From a virus (Duplodnaviria; Caudoviricetes): 64,000 nucleotides of DNA. Each line of letters begins with the position of its first letter. Positions within the stretch are counted from its first letter, which is position 1. The DNA lies in the IMG/VR virus record IMGVR_UViG_3300028914_000059, positions 96,001 to 160,000 of that record. The stretch is one strand, 5' to 3'. Made by a program: the position numbers and the translations under genes. The notes under the pieces are model-generated. The model was given only the letters and a program-made list of their open reading frames with translations. It was not told where the DNA came from and made no database searches. This document shows positions 18,830-22,895 of this stretch, in pieces.

Positions 18830-18858
18830 TTGAATCATCATATAAATGATGGTATAAT
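18830..18858 (+). promoter_or_regulatory. Sigma70-type promoter of the tRNA/ncRNA operon
   Basis: TTGAAT-N17-TATAAT; spacer is itself an inverted repeat (CATCAT...ATGATG). Confidence 0.75.
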
Positions 18859-19202: not shown

Positions 19203-19415
19203 GTCCTGGCAGCCTAATGGGCAGGCGGCCATAAGCAGTCCACTATTTTTATCCATCCATTTGAAGCTCCATCTATATTGATTAAAACTTTAGTGGATTA
19301 GCAGGAAGATGTCAGTTCGAATCTGACATGCTCCACATCGGGGCTATAGACTAACTGGCAAGTCGTCCTACTTGCGTGCTTATGGTGAAAGCTGGTTCGA
19401 TACCAGTCCAGGACT
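19203..19415 (+). ncRNA. Nested anticodon-less double tRNA-like RNA no. 1
   Basis: Outer acceptor GTCCTGG/CCAGGAC; 10-bp helix GCCATAAGCA/TGCTTATGGT; inner permuted T-arm, acceptor hairpin, D-arm. Confidence 0.75.
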
Positions 19416-19430
19416 TTCTTAATAATTTTC

Positions 19431-19515
19431 GGGTAGGTGCCGGAGTGGTTAATCGGAGCGGACTGTAAATCCGCTGGTCTAACGGTCTACGGTGGTTCGA
19501 ATCCACCCCTGCCCA
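19431..19515 (+). tRNA. tRNA-Tyr(GTA)
   Basis: GGGTAGG/CCTGCCC, GCGGA-CT GTA AA-TCCGC, long variable arm. Confidence 0.92.
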
Positions 19516-19581
19516 TTTGATGGAGGGAAAAGGATACTACAAAGGCTAAGTTTGGAGTATCCTGGAACCTACATCAACAAA

Positions 19582-19729
19582 GAACCAGTAGCTCAAGTGG
19601 ATAGAGTATCCATGGAATCAGGAAGCAACGTGAGTTCGAATCTCACTGTCGTTGGTAACAAAACGACATGGCCAAGCGGCGAGGCACCTGTCGATTGGGA
19701 GGTTCTGGGTTCGAACCCCAGCTGGTTCA
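19582..19729 (+). ncRNA. Nested anticodon-less double tRNA-like RNA no. 2
   Basis: Outer acceptor GAACCAG/CTGGTTC; inner acceptor hairpin TGTCGTT/AACGACA; two D arms and two T arms. Confidence 0.75.
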
Positions 19730-20079: not shown

Positions 20080-20175
20080 GGACGACAGACCGAGTTGGAG
20101 AACGGGGAGGCTATTTAAGCCTCTGCTCATTTGGTAGATGAGCTATAGTGTGGTTCGAATCCACACTGTCGTCCT
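20080..20175 (+). tRNA. Atypical long-variable-arm tRNA, anticodon loop non-canonical
   Basis: GGACGACA/TGTCGTCC acceptor, GAGGC-TATTTAA-GCCTC, 8-bp variable arm, GTGTGG-TTCGAAT-CCACAC. Confidence 0.6.
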
Positions 20176-20462
20176 TGACGGGTACAGCGGTACAGCCTAG
20201 GCCCTACACTAATGGATAAGAGTGCGCACTCTTGAGTGTATTATGGCCGGACGTAGAGTGGTTATCCTTCCCAATGAAAACGTCCCCTTGAGATTTTCGA
20301 CGGTTTGCTGGATGTGCCGGCCAGCATCATTTCCAACGCGGAACCCTGATCAGATTGCGTAAGTACGAAATGCGTTCACACAGAAAGAACACCGTTGGCT
20401 GGGTGTATGAGGTAGCGGTTGGCGCTACGTCTCGTGCCCAGCCTTCCTGCCCTGCAGGGATT

Positions 20463-20518
20463 AGACCTCCACGCGGGAGCTTAAGCCTTGTAAGCACCGT
20501 ACCATGTGGAGGCCGCTA
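20463..20518 (+). repeat. Conserved RNA hairpin, copy 1
   Basis: AGACCTCCACGCGGGA-stem-AGCCTTG-stem-CCGTACCATGTGGAGGCCGCTA; second copy at 21934. Confidence 0.75.
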
Positions 20519-20519
20519 T

Positions 20520-20603
20520 GGGGCGGTAGTTGTAATGGTAGAACGTGCAGATAGATAATTCCGCGGTTGTCTGCAAGGTCGTGGTTCGATTCCACGTCGC
20601 CCA
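20520..20603 (+). ncRNA. tRNA-like RNA with extended anticodon arm
   Basis: D and T arms normal; 9-bp TGCAGATAG/TTGTCTGCA stem with 12-nt loop. Confidence 0.7.
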
Positions 20604-20625
20604 TTTTCTGAAAAGGAGAATTACT

Positions 20626-21255
20626 ATGCCTAAACTTTGTGCAAAAATTGGCGGAGAAACATATAAGTTTGGTTTTAACGGGGGGGTACTTCAAGAAAAA
20701 ACTTTAAACCAAACTGTAAATGATGAAGCCACTGCTTACTTTATAGAGGCTTATAAGGTAACTAGTCATAATCCATGGCAAGCCATGAGTTATACTATAG
20801 CAAAAGATTTAAAGTATAATTGTCCTTGTAAATGTTACTTTAATGACTCAATGCTTATATGGACAGCTGGATGGAACAGAGACTTCTTTATTAGTGATAA
20901 AAATGTAAGCAATACGGTGAGCGAATATAGAGTCTATATAAAAATACCGAAGTTTATTGAAAACTGGGGGAGGCCTGATGCTGACACCTCTTTTATGCTT
21001 AGTGAAATATACTCCAGATGTGACAGGAATATAATATGTTCAACAGATGGTGATCCCATGCATGAGTTAGATATAGGTGATGATCATATAGCTAGAAGCT
21101 TACTGACAGACTGGACTAATTATATATTTGATGGTGACAGGGATTATTACATAGCATTTGTGATAGAGTTAGATACTACTCACTCCAACATTCACCTGTT
21201 TGTACCATCTTTTAAAGCGACATTTTACAGATATACAGGAAACTATATAGCATAA
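20626..21255 (+). CDS. Hypothetical protein, tandem paralogue A
   Basis: AAGGAG RBS, MPKLCAKIGGETYK...; highly similar to 21281..21886. Confidence 0.8.
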   Translation: MPKLCAKIGGETYKFGFNGGVLQEKTLNQTVNDEATAYFIEAYKVTSHNPWQAMSYTIAKDLKYNCPCKCYFNDSMLIWTAGWNRDFFISDKNVSNTVSEYRVYIKIPKFIENWGRPDADTSFMLSEIYSRCDRNIICSTDGDPMHELDIGDDHIARSLLTDWTNYIFDGDRDYYIAFVIELDTTHSNIHLFVPSFKATFYRYTGNYIA

Positions 21256-21280
21256 TCTATATAAAGGTAGGAGAATTACT

Positions 21281-21886
21281 GTGCCTAAACTTTGTGCAAA
21301 AATTGGTGGAGAAACATATAAGCTTGATTTTAACAGTGGGGTACTTCAGGAAAAAACTTTAAACCCAACTGTAAATGATGAAGCCACTGCTTACTTTATA
21401 AGGGCTTGGGGGGCGACTACTGGTCGGACTGTAGCAGAAGATTTAAAGTATAATTGTCCTTGTAAATGTTACTTTAATGACTCAATGCTTATATGGACAG
21501 CTGGATGGAACCAAAACTTCTTTATTAGTAATAAAAAGGTAAGCGATACGGCGCTAAAATATGAAGTTTGGATAAAAATACCTAAGTTTATTGAAAACTG
21601 GGGGAAACCTGATGATAGCACCTCTTTCATGTTTAGTGGAATATATTCCAGATATAATAGGAATATAATATGTTCAACAGATGGTGACCCTTTGCATGAG
21701 CTAGACATGGGTGATGACCATATAGAGAGAAGCTTAATGATAGACTGGACTAATTTTTTTGATGGAGACCATGATTATTACATACTATTCAGAGTAGAGT
21801 TAGATGGCACTCACTCCAACATTTACCTGTTTGTGCCATCTTTTAAAGTGACCTTTTATAGATATACAGGAACCTATCTAGCATAA
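21281..21886 (+). CDS. Hypothetical protein, tandem paralogue B
   Basis: GTG start with the same GGAGAATTACT context; same 3' flank GCATAATCTATATAAAGGTAGGAG. Confidence 0.8.
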   Translation: MPKLCAKIGGETYKLDFNSGVLQEKTLNPTVNDEATAYFIRAWGATTGRTVAEDLKYNCPCKCYFNDSMLIWTAGWNQNFFISNKKVSDTALKYEVWIKIPKFIENWGKPDDSTSFMFSGIYSRYNRNIICSTDGDPLHELDMGDDHIERSLMIDWTNFFDGDHDYYILFRVELDGTHSNIYLFVPSFKVTFYRYTGTYLA

Positions 21887-21933
21887 TCTATATAAAGGTA
21901 GGAGTTCAGCCTTGGAAATAAAGACTGCCAATC

Positions 21934-21986
21934 AGACCTCCACGCGGGAATCCAGCCTTGGGATCCGTACCATGTGGAGGCCGCTA
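21934..21986 (+). repeat. Conserved RNA hairpin, copy 2
   Basis: Same as 20463..20518 with compensatory inner stem ATCC/GGAT. Confidence 0.75.
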
Positions 21987-22141
21987 AATTAAAAGTGCCA
22001 AACGGGAAAGGCACTCTAAACATGGACACATCAACCATGGACCCGGTACCGGGTCCCAATGAAGCACCGCCAGAAATGGCTACGGCACTGGTTACAAAGC
22101 CGTAGTACCTGCCTCTCGAGCGCATGAGACAGGAACAAACT

Positions 22142-22292
22142 GAAGTAGAGGTAGGCTGGTAGCCCAGCTGGTTAAGGCACCCGGAGGAAAGTTAGCGGGG
22201 GATTATATTCCGTCACGCATTAGCTTTCTGCAAGGGAGATCAGGGGTTCGAGTCCCTTCCAGGCGACAAGACCGAAAGGTCCCCTCTACTTC
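22142..22292 (+). ncRNA. tRNA-like domain with extended anticodon arm enclosed in an outer helix
   Basis: GAAGTAGAGG/CCTCTACTTC closing helix, D arm, T arm AGGGG-TTCGAGT-CCCTT, GACC-GAAA-GGTC tetraloop. Confidence 0.65.
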
Positions 22293-22372: not shown

Positions 22373-22466
22373 GACGATTTATCCGAATTGGAAATAGGGG
22401 GAGGCTGTGAGCCTCCGGATATATGTTAATGTATATCCTGTGGTGGTTCGATTCCACCAGTCGTCA
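22373..22466 (+). tRNA. Atypical long-variable-arm tRNA with GTG anticodon
   Basis: GACGATT/AGTCGTC, A73, GGAGG-CT GTG AG-CCTCC, long variable arm, no G-1. Confidence 0.6.
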
Positions 22467-22598: not shown

Positions 22599-22760
22599 GA
22601 CTGCCTCGTCTAACGGATAAGACACAGGATGGGTTACGTAAAGGGTCATTTCTATCTCCTTAGTTTGATCTCAGAGTCTCATTCCTTCCTTTCATTAACG
22701 GTGTTTTTAGTCAAGTCAAGTTGCTCCGCCTGAATGCCGGTTCGAATCCGGCGGCAGTCT
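22599..22760 (+). ncRNA. tRNA scaffold with about 100-nt insert replacing the anticodon loop
   Basis: Perfect acceptor GACTGCC/GGCAGTC, D stem GTCT/AGAC, T arm GCCGG-TTCGAAT-CCGGC, CAGG/CCTG stem enclosing 22629-22728. Confidence 0.8.
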
Positions 22761-22895
22761 CTGGAGCCCGTATGAAATATGATGGGTTACCAATAAGGCA
22801 TGCTTCCGCCTGTAATGGGGCAGAGTATGTTTTAATTCGATGTCCTCCTTTTAAAAATTGTCATCGAGCATGCTGGGAAACTGGTATGCTCTTAC

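What the first reader, a model, noticed from the sequence alone, without database searches (positions are those of the whole stretch)
19582..19729. tRNA inside a tRNA (no. 2): independent sequence, same topology
Seen: outer acceptor GAACCAG(19582)/CTGGTTC(19722)+A is perfect. Inner acceptor TGTCGTT(19647)/AACGACA(19662) is perfect and closed by GGTAACAA. There are two D arms (GCTC/GAGT; GCC/GGC) and two T arms (GTGAG-TTCGAAT-CTCAC; CTGGG-TTCGAAC-CCCAG). The two anticodon stems are fused into one interrupted helix (TCC/GGA, AATC/GATT, AGG/CCT), leaving no anticodon loop. A second unrelated instance argues the architecture is selected, not decay. Inference: cleavage of the linker would give a domain-swapped tRNA heterodimer with two acceptor ends.
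Basis: partly seen in the sequence, partly recalled or inferred. Interest (0 to 1): 0.88.

Follow-up and report, generated by a model that had tools for sequence, protein, structure and literature searches.

The report
Two-bodied tRNA look-alike in rumen phage
A rumen phage's tRNA gene cluster encodes a 148-base RNA built as one tRNA body with a second, back-to-front tRNA body in place of its codon-reading loop. Related phages keep this fold through compensating mutations, so it is a real, selected tRNA mimic; I found the design in no RNA library or paper, and its job is unknown.

Summary
Window 19582-19729 (+) has two perfect 7-bp acceptor helices that cross over, two D arms and two T arms.

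I recovered six close variants, one divergent homolog and a paralogous 162-164-nt family ("E3") from related rumen-phage contigs.
- Across 10 distinct sequences, 98% of pair cells are standard pairs.
- 23 of 39 pairs changed on both sides, against 3-5 pairs in slid controls.
- All eight helices covary, including both swapped acceptors.

The hinge register needs correcting. It is two 4-bp stems (19609-12/19696-99 and 19619-22/19687-90) around a 6x5 internal loop.

ARAGORN can read the element as tRNA-Asp(GTC) with a 74-nt intron. That reading is not conserved:
- the middle "anticodon" base is U, G or A in variants;
- E3 has no 7-nt loop;
- the phage has no RtcB or splicing endonuclease.

Best reading: a non-decoding, two-elbow tRNA mimic cut from the tRNA operon by tRNA-processing enzymes. 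There is a precedent in M. smegmatis YrlA.

No Rfam family matches and no paper I found describes it. This scan has noted the same architecture before in other phage genomes; I did not test those notes. Function is unknown, and a role in conflict over host tRNA is inferred.

The parts
18830..18858 (+). sigma-70-like promoter (TTGAAT, 17 nt, TATAAT with TG) upstream of the tRNA/ncRNA array. This is context, not part of the RNA.
   Evidence: 10 of 12 consensus matches. The array runs to terminator-like hairpins at 22573-92 and about 23010-45 (read from the sequence).
19582..19588 (+). outer acceptor, 5' strand; pairs with 19722-28
   Evidence: 6 of 7 pairs changed on both sides across homologs. 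The upstream flank is unrelated between strains right up to base 1.
19589..19608 (+). U8 A9, outer D arm (stem 19591-94/19604-07, 9-nt loop with GG), then A26
19609..19612 (+). outer anticodon-stem 5' strand; pairs with 19696-99
   Evidence: 100% paired; 3 of 4 pairs changed on both sides.
19613..19618 (+). hinge strand 1 (6 nt, purine-rich, internal loop)
   Evidence: length 6-8 nt; the sequence varies
19619..19622 (+). inner anticodon-stem strand; pairs with 19687-90
   Evidence: 3 of 4 pairs changed on both sides (CAGG/CCTG, CAGC/GCTG, AGGG/CCCT)
19623..19629 (+). variable-region equivalent of the inner body
19630..19646 (+). inner T arm (5 bp, loop TTCGAAT)
19647..19653 (+). inner acceptor 3' strand, contiguous with the T stem
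   Evidence: 6 of 7 pairs changed on both sides
19654..19661 (+). 8-nt linker that closes the inner acceptor. Its first base sits at the discriminator position. Candidate RNase P / 3'-trimming target.
   Evidence: cleavage not tested
19662..19668 (+). inner acceptor 5' strand
19669..19686 (+). U8 G9, inner D arm (3-bp stem 19671-73/19683-85, class-II-like loop with GG), then A26
19687..19690 (+). inner anticodon-stem 5' strand. It contains the C32 U33 G34 of ARAGORN's reading.
19691..19695 (+). hinge strand 2 (5 nt). Its first base is the 'anticodon' middle base.
   Evidence: that base is U, G or A in homologs
19696..19699 (+). outer anticodon-stem 3' strand
19700..19704 (+). outer 5-nt variable loop
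19705..19721 (+). outer T arm (5 bp, loop TTCGAAC)
   Evidence: 3 of 5 pairs changed on both sides
19722..19729 (+). outer acceptor 3' strand plus discriminator A. No CCA is encoded.
   Evidence: downstream flanks differ between strains immediately after A19729
19203..19415 (+). sibling nested element E1: an outer tRNA frame, a 10-bp helix, an extra 59-nt hairpin, and an inner permuted Ala-like body
   Evidence: conserved in eight arrays

Best explanation
The element is one RNA gene in a phage tRNA operon. Its product is a non-decoding 'two-elbow' tRNA mimic.

Shown:
- The sequence folds as a complete outer tRNA frame (acceptor, D arm, 4-bp anticodon stem, 5-nt variable loop, T arm).
- The anticodon loop of that frame is replaced by a circularly permuted second tRNA body, in this order: 4-bp stem, T arm, closed 7-bp acceptor, U8, D arm.
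- The two bodies are joined tail to tail by two short stems around an asymmetric internal loop.
- Selection has kept every helix.

Inferred:
- The host's RNase P cuts at 19581/19582.
- 3' trimming and the CCA-adding enzyme finish the outer end after A19729. The conserved block begins and ends exactly there, and no CCA is encoded.
- The RNA folds into two L-shaped cores, because U8, the GG of each D loop and both T loops are kept.
- It is not spliced and does not read codons.

Most likely role, by inference only: it occupies or diverts host proteins that grip tRNA by the elbow and acceptor end. Candidates are tRNA-targeting defence nucleases or tRNA-processing and tRNA-modifying enzymes. This fits its place in a fast-shuffling accessory array.
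For: Structure
- 10 distinct homologs: 98.2% of 390 pair cells are standard pairs; 23 of 39 pairs changed on both sides; 0 of 500 shuffles reach this. Slid controls give 32-47% paired and 3-5 such pairs.
- RNAalifold on an independent MAFFT alignment recovers the outer acceptor, both T arms, the outer D arm and the inner acceptor hairpin. For the inner D arm it predicts only a shorter hairpin in a different register.
- Among six close variants there are 20 variable columns. 11 lie in stems, and all keep pairing except C1.C72.

Discrete module
- There are at least four unrelated upstream flanks and three downstream flanks. They begin exactly at base 1 and after base 148.
- Other strains skip or insert neighbouring modules at these borders.

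Non-decoding
- The Rfam tRNA model does not match even at E<=1.
- Position 19691 is U, G or A in homologs.
- A 31:39 mismatch is kept.
- The E3 paralogs have 4 nt where a 7-nt loop would be.
- No RtcB and no tRNA-intron endonuclease in the 180-kb phage.

Operon context
- A promoter-like site at 18830-58 and terminator-like sites downstream.
- Ordinary tRNAs lie on both sides.

Stability
- The nested fold evaluates at -43.4 kcal/mol, against -33.4 for the halves folded separately.
Against: - No RNA data show the transcript, its ends or its size. The one RNA run laid had no contig over the element; this is uninformative.
- The function is inference only. No partner protein gene travels with the element, and the neighbours have no Pfam family.
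- The top of the outer acceptor is unusually variable (GAA, GAG, CAG, CGA, GGA against a constant 3' strand in the six close variants; C1.C72 in two variants). That is odd if a specific enzyme reads it.
- ARAGORN does find a well-formed tRNA-Asp once 74 nt are removed.
- All homologs come from one lineage of rumen phages. The covariation between E2 and E3 rests on a model-fitted alignment.
Confidence: 0.6

Rival explanations
1. Two-piece maturation. RNase P also cuts at 19661/19662, and 3' trimming plus CCA addition finish the end near 19654. The mature form would then be a base-paired heterodimer of two tRNA-sized RNAs (about 76 and 71 nt) with two free CCA ends, possibly chargeable. This changes how the RNA matures, not what it is.
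For: - The inner acceptor is a perfect 7-bp helix stacked directly on a 5-bp T stem, which is the 12-bp unit that RNase P measures.
- M. smegmatis YrlA has a closed 7-bp acceptor-like stem. It is cut by M1 RNA at the predicted site and is CCA-tailed in vivo. YrlAs with shorter stems are not cut (PMC4201824).
- The linker is a plain 8-nt loop in all E2 variants.
Against: - In the E3 paralogs the linker is 21-27 nt and forms its own covarying hairpin that abuts the inner 5' strand with no spacer. Established knowledge: structure next to the cleavage site hinders bacterial RNase P.
- No RNA-end data exist.
- The inner discriminator and the linker are not CCA-like.
Confidence: 0.3
2. An intron-containing tRNA-Asp(GUC) gene. 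The 74 nt at 19614-19687 are removed between nucleotides 31 and 32, and the exons are ligated into a decoding tRNA.
For:
- The phage encodes an RNA-ligase-family protein (PF09414 plus the PHA02142 OB domain).
- Variants read GUC, GGC or GAC, all real anticodons. The GGC variant also has G3.U70.
Against: - The middle anticodon base changes with no matching change of body or discriminator.
- The 31:39 mismatch is conserved.
- C32-U33-G34 are locked in a covarying helix.
- The homologous E3 family has no 7-nt loop.
- By inspection the strands at the putative splice sites do not form a bulge-helix-bulge.
- No splicing endonuclease or RtcB, and no group I match. 74 nt is far below group I size (established knowledge).
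- The ligase gene sits in the DNA-replication module.
- A73 and A38 are not bacterial Asp identity elements (established knowledge).
Confidence: 0.07
3. A YrlA-type Y RNA that works with a Ro60/Rsr protein. The inner permuted body would be the YrlA tRNA-like module.
For: - The inner body has the same permuted topology as YrlA.
- Hinge strand 2 reads GNCGAW, and in L048 it reads GACGAAG, which resembles the YrlA GNCGAAN0-1G motif.
Against: - No match to RF02553 at E<=1.
- The motif lies on the strand 3' of the module, whereas in YrlA it is near the 5' end. It is not kept in E3.
- No TROVE gene in the phage.
- The helix leads into a second full tRNA body, not into a Ro60-binding stem.
Confidence: 0.05
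4. Non-functional debris: two decaying tandem tRNA genes, or a recombination scar at the DNA level.
For: The arrays are mosaic, and recombination breakpoints lie at module borders.
Against: - Compensatory changes in every helix.
- A perfect 7+7 crossover that no single inversion or deletion of two tandem tRNA genes produces (reasoned from the strand order).
- Three paralogous families keep the same topology.
Confidence: 0.03

Closest known systems
YrlA, the tRNA-like bacterial and mycobacteriophage Y RNA (Rfam RF02553; Chen et al. 2014, PMC4201824)
   Same: - A circularly permuted tRNA-like module: T arm, acceptor-like stem closed by a loop, and D arm, mounted on a helix at the anticodon position.
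- The 7-bp version in M. smegmatis is an RNase P and CCA-adding substrate.
- It also occurs in phages.
   Different: - The YrlA helix carries a Ro60-binding motif near the RNA's 5' end, and the gene lies beside rsr.
- Here the helix leads into a second, complete tRNA frame with its own free acceptor end.
- No Rfam match and no TROVE gene in the phage.
Phage T4 RNA C and RNA D (species 1 and 2 stable RNAs, rnaC/rnaD, NC_000866 70908-71171)
   Same: - Stable, tRNA-cluster-encoded phage RNAs of 119-139 nt.
- RNA C has a tRNA-type T arm and acceptor-like end.
- Function unknown for decades.
   Different: - RNA C has one T arm and no second tRNA body.
- The model of this element scores only 10.5 bits (E 2.2) on it.
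Permuted tRNA genes of the red alga Cyanidioschyzon merolae, and two-piece (permuted) tmRNA genes
   Same: The 3' half, ending in the acceptor 3' strand, is encoded upstream of the 5' half and joined to it by a short intervening segment.
   Different: - Those precursors mature into a working tRNA or tmRNA.
- Here only 17 nt would be available for the inner body's anticodon arm, so no anticodon loop can form.
- No tag reading frame, and no tmRNA call.
- The comparison with these two families rests on my own knowledge.
Intron-containing tRNA genes (archaeal/eukaryal bulge-helix-bulge introns; bacterial group I introns)
   Same: An insert sits at the anticodon loop, and an insert-to-anticodon helix sequesters bases 32-34.
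   Different: - No bulge-helix-bulge and no group I core.
- No endonuclease or RtcB.
- The insert is itself a tRNA body, and the anticodon is not conserved.

Membership tests
canonical tRNA (Rfam RF00005) | contiguous cloverleaf with a 5-bp anticodon stem and a 7-nt loop | tested here: not met
   No RF00005 match over 19582-19729 at gathering score or at E<=1. Plain ARAGORN does not call it.
canonical tRNA (Rfam RF00005) | anticodon conserved among orthologs | tested here: not met
   Position 19691 is U in 5 variants, G in L040 and A in L048.
spliced tRNA gene (bulge-helix-bulge or group I intron) | splice-site structure: 3-nt bulge, 4-bp helix, 3-nt bulge; or a group I catalytic core | tested here: not met
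   By inspection of 19609-22 and 19687-99, the unpaired stretches are 6 and 5 nt and face each other. No intron family in Rfam matches at E<=1.
spliced tRNA gene (bulge-helix-bulge or group I intron) | splicing endonuclease and RtcB-type ligase available | tested here: not met
   PF01974 and PF01139 are absent from the 180-kb phage. The host genome is unknown, so the host side is not testable.
YrlA / Y RNA (RF02553) | permuted tRNA-like module with a closed acceptor-like stem | tested here: met
   Inner body 19619-19690.
YrlA / Y RNA (RF02553) | match to the family covariance model | tested here: not met
   No hit at E<=1 in the window's array, nor at E<=0.1 in a relative's array.
YrlA / Y RNA (RF02553) | GNCGAAN0-1G motif near the 5' end, and a linked Ro60/rsr gene | tested here: not met
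   The similar string lies 3' of the module and is not kept in E3. No TROVE domain in the phage.
tmRNA (one- or two-piece) | Ala-type acceptor (G3.U70) plus a tag reading frame | tested here: not met
   ARAGORN's tmRNA search is negative. The inner acceptor has C3:G70 and the outer has A3:U70 in the window.
T4 RNA C / RNA D | sequence or structure homology to rnaC/rnaD | tested here: not met
   Model R1 scores 10.5 bits, E 2.2, on rnaC. Only the genomic context is shared.
nested 'two-elbow' phage tRNA mimics (noted by this scan; not in the literature searched) | outer tRNA frame plus a permuted inner tRNA body in the anticodon position, kept by covariation | tested here: met
   Whether this element is homologous to the elements in other phage lineages was not tested.

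The most novel reading that the evidence does not exclude
These RNAs are opened by RNase P into bivalent, doubly CCA-tailed tRNA heterodimers, or stay as bivalent single chains. Synthetases would charge them by reading the bases exposed in the hinge. The hinge shows U35-C36 in the window, G35-C36 together with G3.U70 in L040, and A35-C36 with A73 in L048. The charged RNAs cannot enter decoding, and would act as phage-made inhibitors or sinks for host tRNA-directed immunity or for aminoacyl-tRNA-dependent enzymes. That would be a new class of RNA counter-defence.
Probability: 0.12. Interest if true: 0.9.

Novelty: new variant of a known kind. Interest (0 to 1): 0.74.

Why it matters
Phage tRNA clusters have held unexplained stable RNAs since T4's RNA C and D. 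tRNA is now known to be a major target of bacterial immunity (PARIS, PrrC, Schlafen-type and Cas12a3 nucleases).

A conserved RNA that presents two tRNA elbows and up to two acceptor ends, but no anticodon, is a ready-made probe for whatever host machinery recognises tRNA shape.

The fold is defined here to the base pair, with natural compensatory variants. It can therefore be synthesised and tested directly for processing, charging, binding partners and protection against tRNA-cleaving defences.

The work also shows that gene finders will either miss such genes or mislabel them as intron-containing tRNAs.

Tried and rejected
Searches for more homologs that found nothing
- Exact-pattern scans for E2 blocks and for the adjacent tRNA-Ser found nothing in IMG/VR, JGI metagenomes or GTDB genomes. 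Records very near the window are masked there.
- The search for related loci with flanking proteins gave either no relatives or relatives without tRNAs.
- BLAST of the array against cultured phages hit only ordinary tRNA-Tyr and tRNA-Met genes.
- TerL relatives at about 70% identity are short contigs. The large distant relatives carry no tRNA-like hit to model R1.

The ORF trick
- Searching the spurious ORF that overlaps the element found one contig, L025. A second contig had no DNA on file.
- The productive route was the cluster of the 92-aa protein just downstream of the array.

Cultured phages
- My nested-fold detector found nothing in the fetched regions of S-RSM4, FLC1-1B, Kodama, BcepSauron and T4.
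- So I did not verify the scan's earlier claim that cultured phages carry such RNAs.
- An accession recalled from memory for Psa21 turned out to be another phage.

Sequencing runs
- Read laying did not print the letter differences inside the element.
- The single RNA run had no contig over the element. Neither result says anything about expression.

Structure and motif checks
- MAFFT could not align E1 with E2.
- The minimum-free-energy fold mispairs the two T arms, a known artefact of palindromic TTCGAA loops.
- I looked for kink-turn, loop-E and self-complementary UCGA readings of the hinge by eye. None is kept across the variants.

Full report
**What is there**

The window is bases 96001-160000 of a 180-kb IMG/VR virus record. 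Sequencing runs that hold it are bovine, sheep and goat gut metagenomes.

The element lies in a 4-kb array of tRNA and tRNA-like genes, all on the + strand.
- The array follows a promoter-like site at 18830-58 (TTGAAT, 17 nt, TG-TATAAT).
- It is followed by terminator-like hairpins.
- The promoter type and strong GGAG-type ribosome-binding sites point to a bacterial host, probably one that uses Shine-Dalgarno sequences. That is an inference.
- ARAGORN calls seven ordinary-looking tRNAs in the array.
- Fourteen T arms are present there, so seven belong to something else.

**The observation**

- The first 5' acceptor strand (19582-88) pairs 7/7 with the last 3' strand (19722-28).
- The strand right after the first T arm (19647-53) pairs 7/7 with 19662-68 across an 8-nt loop.
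- Each half, read alone, has non-pairing acceptor strands.
- The inner part has everything a tRNA core needs, in circularly permuted order: stem strand, 7-nt variable region, T arm, closed acceptor, U8-G9, a 3-bp class-II-like D arm with GG, A26, stem strand.
- The outer part is a normal frame with U8-A9, a 4-bp D stem, a 5-nt variable loop and a T arm.

Evaluated with ViennaRNA, the nested fold is about 10 kcal/mol better than the two halves folding on their own.

**Comparative evidence**

Direct pattern scans failed. Two indirect routes worked.
- The spurious ORF across the element found one ENA contig, L025.
- The 92-aa protein just downstream of the array belongs to a 19-member cluster. 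Its contigs carry the arrays of sister phages.

A covariance model of the element (R1) then found three groups:
- six distinct close variants of 148 nt;
- one divergent homolog of 151 nt (L048:4115-4265);
- a paralogous family of 162-164 nt that I call E3 (L031:4319-4480, L041:829-992, L048:3484-3647).

On these 10 distinct sequences:
- 98.2% of pair cells are standard pairs;
- 23 of 39 pairs changed on both sides;
- no shuffle of 500 reached this;
- sliding the partners by 1-3 columns drops pairing to 32-47%, with 3-5 such pairs.

Every helix is supported. Counts of pairs changed on both sides:

| helix | pairs changed on both sides |
|---|---|
| outer acceptor | 6 of 7 |
| inner acceptor | 6 of 7 |
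| outer anticodon stem | 3 of 4 |
| inner stem | 3 of 4 |
| outer T arm | 3 of 5 |
| inner T arm | 1 of 5 |
| outer D arm | 1 of 4 |
| inner D arm | invariant |

That alignment was fitted to the model. As a check, RNAalifold on a plain MAFFT alignment independently returns the outer acceptor, both T arms, the outer D arm and the inner acceptor hairpin. For the inner D arm it returns a shorter hairpin in a different register.

Within the six close variants alone:
- one inner-acceptor pair goes A:U to G:C;
- one outer-stem pair goes C:G, U.G, U:A;
- the only non-pair is C1.C72 in two variants, whose upstream flank is a different module.

**Correction of the hinge**

TCC/GGA breaks in 5 of 6 variants, and AATC/GATT breaks in 2 of 6.

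The supported picture is two 4-bp stems, 19609-12/19696-99 and 19619-22/19687-90. They are separated by an internal loop of 6 nt on one strand and 5 nt on the other. In the relatives the loop is 8x5 or 7x4.

**Module borders**

Upstream flanks are of at least four unrelated kinds and downstream flanks of at least three. The similarity starts at base 1 and stops after the discriminator.

Contigs of other strains join neighbouring modules differently.
- In one strain the tRNA-Ser follows the element directly.
- In another strain, 73 extra bases sit just upstream.

The element is therefore a cassette with tRNA-type ends and no encoded CCA. That is what one expects of an RNA released by RNase P and 3' trimming. 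The processing itself is inferred.

**Is it a tRNA with an intron?**

With introns allowed, ARAGORN reads tRNA-Asp(GTC) with a 74-nt intron between nucleotides 31 and 32, and the spliced form is a tidy cloverleaf. I take this as a relic of the outer frame's origin, not as its present function.
- The middle anticodon base is U, G or A in otherwise near-identical bodies.
- The 31:39 mismatch is kept.
- Bases 32-34 are locked in a helix whose neighbouring pair covaries.
- The homologous E3 family has only four bases where the loop would be.
- The two stretches between the central stems total 39 nt. Two complete anticodon arms with variable loops would need at least 42.
- There is no bulge-helix-bulge and no group I signature.
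- There is no RtcB and no splicing endonuclease in the phage.
- An RNA-ligase-family gene exists, but it sits among replication genes.

One coincidence stays unexplained. The variant with GGC also has G3.U70, the alanine mark. The variant with GAC has A35, C36 and A73, the valine marks. The identity rules are from my own knowledge of E. coli.

**One chain or two?**

The inner acceptor plus T stem is the 12-bp stack that RNase P measures. M. smegmatis YrlA, which has just such a closed 7-bp stem, is cut by RNase P RNA and CCA-tailed in vivo (PMC4201824).

Against it as a rule, the E3 linker is a covarying hairpin set directly against the inner 5' strand. I put the two-piece form at about 0.3.

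**What it is closest to**

The inner body has the topology of the YrlA tRNA-like module, but membership fails.
- No RF02553 match.
- The Ro60 motif is on the wrong side and is not conserved.
- No TROVE gene.

T4 RNA C and D share only the context. Permuted tRNA and two-piece tmRNA genes share the gene order, but not a working anticodon or tag.

No paper found in seven searches describes a tRNA body nested in another.

This scan's own notebook holds many notes of the same architecture in jumbo and other phages, with YrlA named as closest known. I used them as leads and did not test them. My detector found none in the five cultured-phage regions I fetched.

**Function**

Nothing here shows the function.
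- The array is an accessory, strain-variable region. It is packed with altered tRNA shapes: class-II-like bodies with Lys and His anticodons, tRNA frames with 13-, 91- and roughly 50-nt inserts, and three nested families.
- Host immunity that cleaves or modifies tRNA is widespread.

My working model, at roughly one in three, is that the RNA competes for a host factor that binds tRNA by its elbow and acceptor.

**Verdict**

The feature is real and the structure is solved at the secondary level. It is non-decoding with high probability. The design is undescribed in the sources searched, and the function is open.

Noticed in passing
window 19203-19415: Sibling nested element E1.
- Outer acceptor pairs 7/7.
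- A 10-bp helix, and an extra 59-nt hairpin with an AU-rich loop at the hinge.
- The inner permuted body looks like tRNA-Ala: G3.U70, A73, and a loop reading CTTGCGT.
- It is nearly invariant in eight arrays. The few changes lie mostly in the hairpin loop and the linker.
   Followed up: partly
L031:4319-4480, L041:829-992, L048:3484-3647: A third nested family (E3, 162-164 nt) in sister phages; it is absent from the window's genome. It has the same topology as the element studied. Its inner acceptor is capped by a covarying hairpin, and it has only 4 nt on hinge strand 2.
   Followed up: partly
window 20082-20174 and 22373-22466: Two paralogous class-II-like tRNAs with long variable arms. They share acceptor and anticodon-stem sequences but carry Lys (TTT) and His (GTG) anticodons. 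The first has an 8-bp acceptor. They are candidate mis-charging tRNAs or nuclease-resistant substitutes.
   Followed up: no
window 20520-20604, 22142-22292, 22599-22761: tRNA frames with intact acceptor, D and T arms but with 13-nt, about 50-nt and 91-nt inserts at the anticodon loop. ARAGORN reads two of them as Asn(GTT) and Ser(GCT) with introns.
   Followed up: no
window 19431-19515, 19582-19729, 20520-20604, 22373-22466: All four GUN anticodons (Tyr, Asp, Asn, His; the queuosine family and the colicin E5 target set) appear in the array. Three of the four sit on abnormal bodies. Cultured phages FLC1-1B and S-RSM4 also cluster Asp, Asn and Tyr tRNAs.
   Followed up: no
window 20460-21933: A 1.47-kb cassette carries a tRNA-like gene and two paralogous ORFs (209 and 201 aa, no Pfam family).
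- It is bracketed by direct repeats of about 55 nt (20462-20519 and 21933-21987).
- Some relatives lack it.
- A sheep-gut metatranscriptome contig at depth 40 joins 20459 to 21934. It covers the roughly 600-nt non-coding stretch 20192-20459 plus 21934-22269.
- That stretch matches no Rfam family, including ROOL and GOLLD.
   Followed up: partly
L025:294-379: A stand-alone permuted tRNA-like module just downstream of that strain's copy of the element. It has a T arm at 315 and a closed 7/7 acceptor hairpin with a 6-nt loop, followed by a D-arm-like stretch.
   Followed up: no
genome 4652-5809 (L006:4652-5809): An RNA-ligase-family protein (PF09414 with the PHA02142 OB domain). It sits between a PD-(D/E)XK nuclease and an AEP primase-MCM helicase, so it is more likely a replication or repair ligase than a tRNA ligase.
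   Followed up: partly
L040:4203-4350 and L048:4115-4265: In two variants, changes in the hinge match changes in the acceptor.
- L040: hinge base 35 is G, with G3.U70 and A73 (alanine-like).
- L048: A35-C36 with A73 (valine-like). L048 also has mismatches at 3:70 in both acceptors.
   Followed up: no
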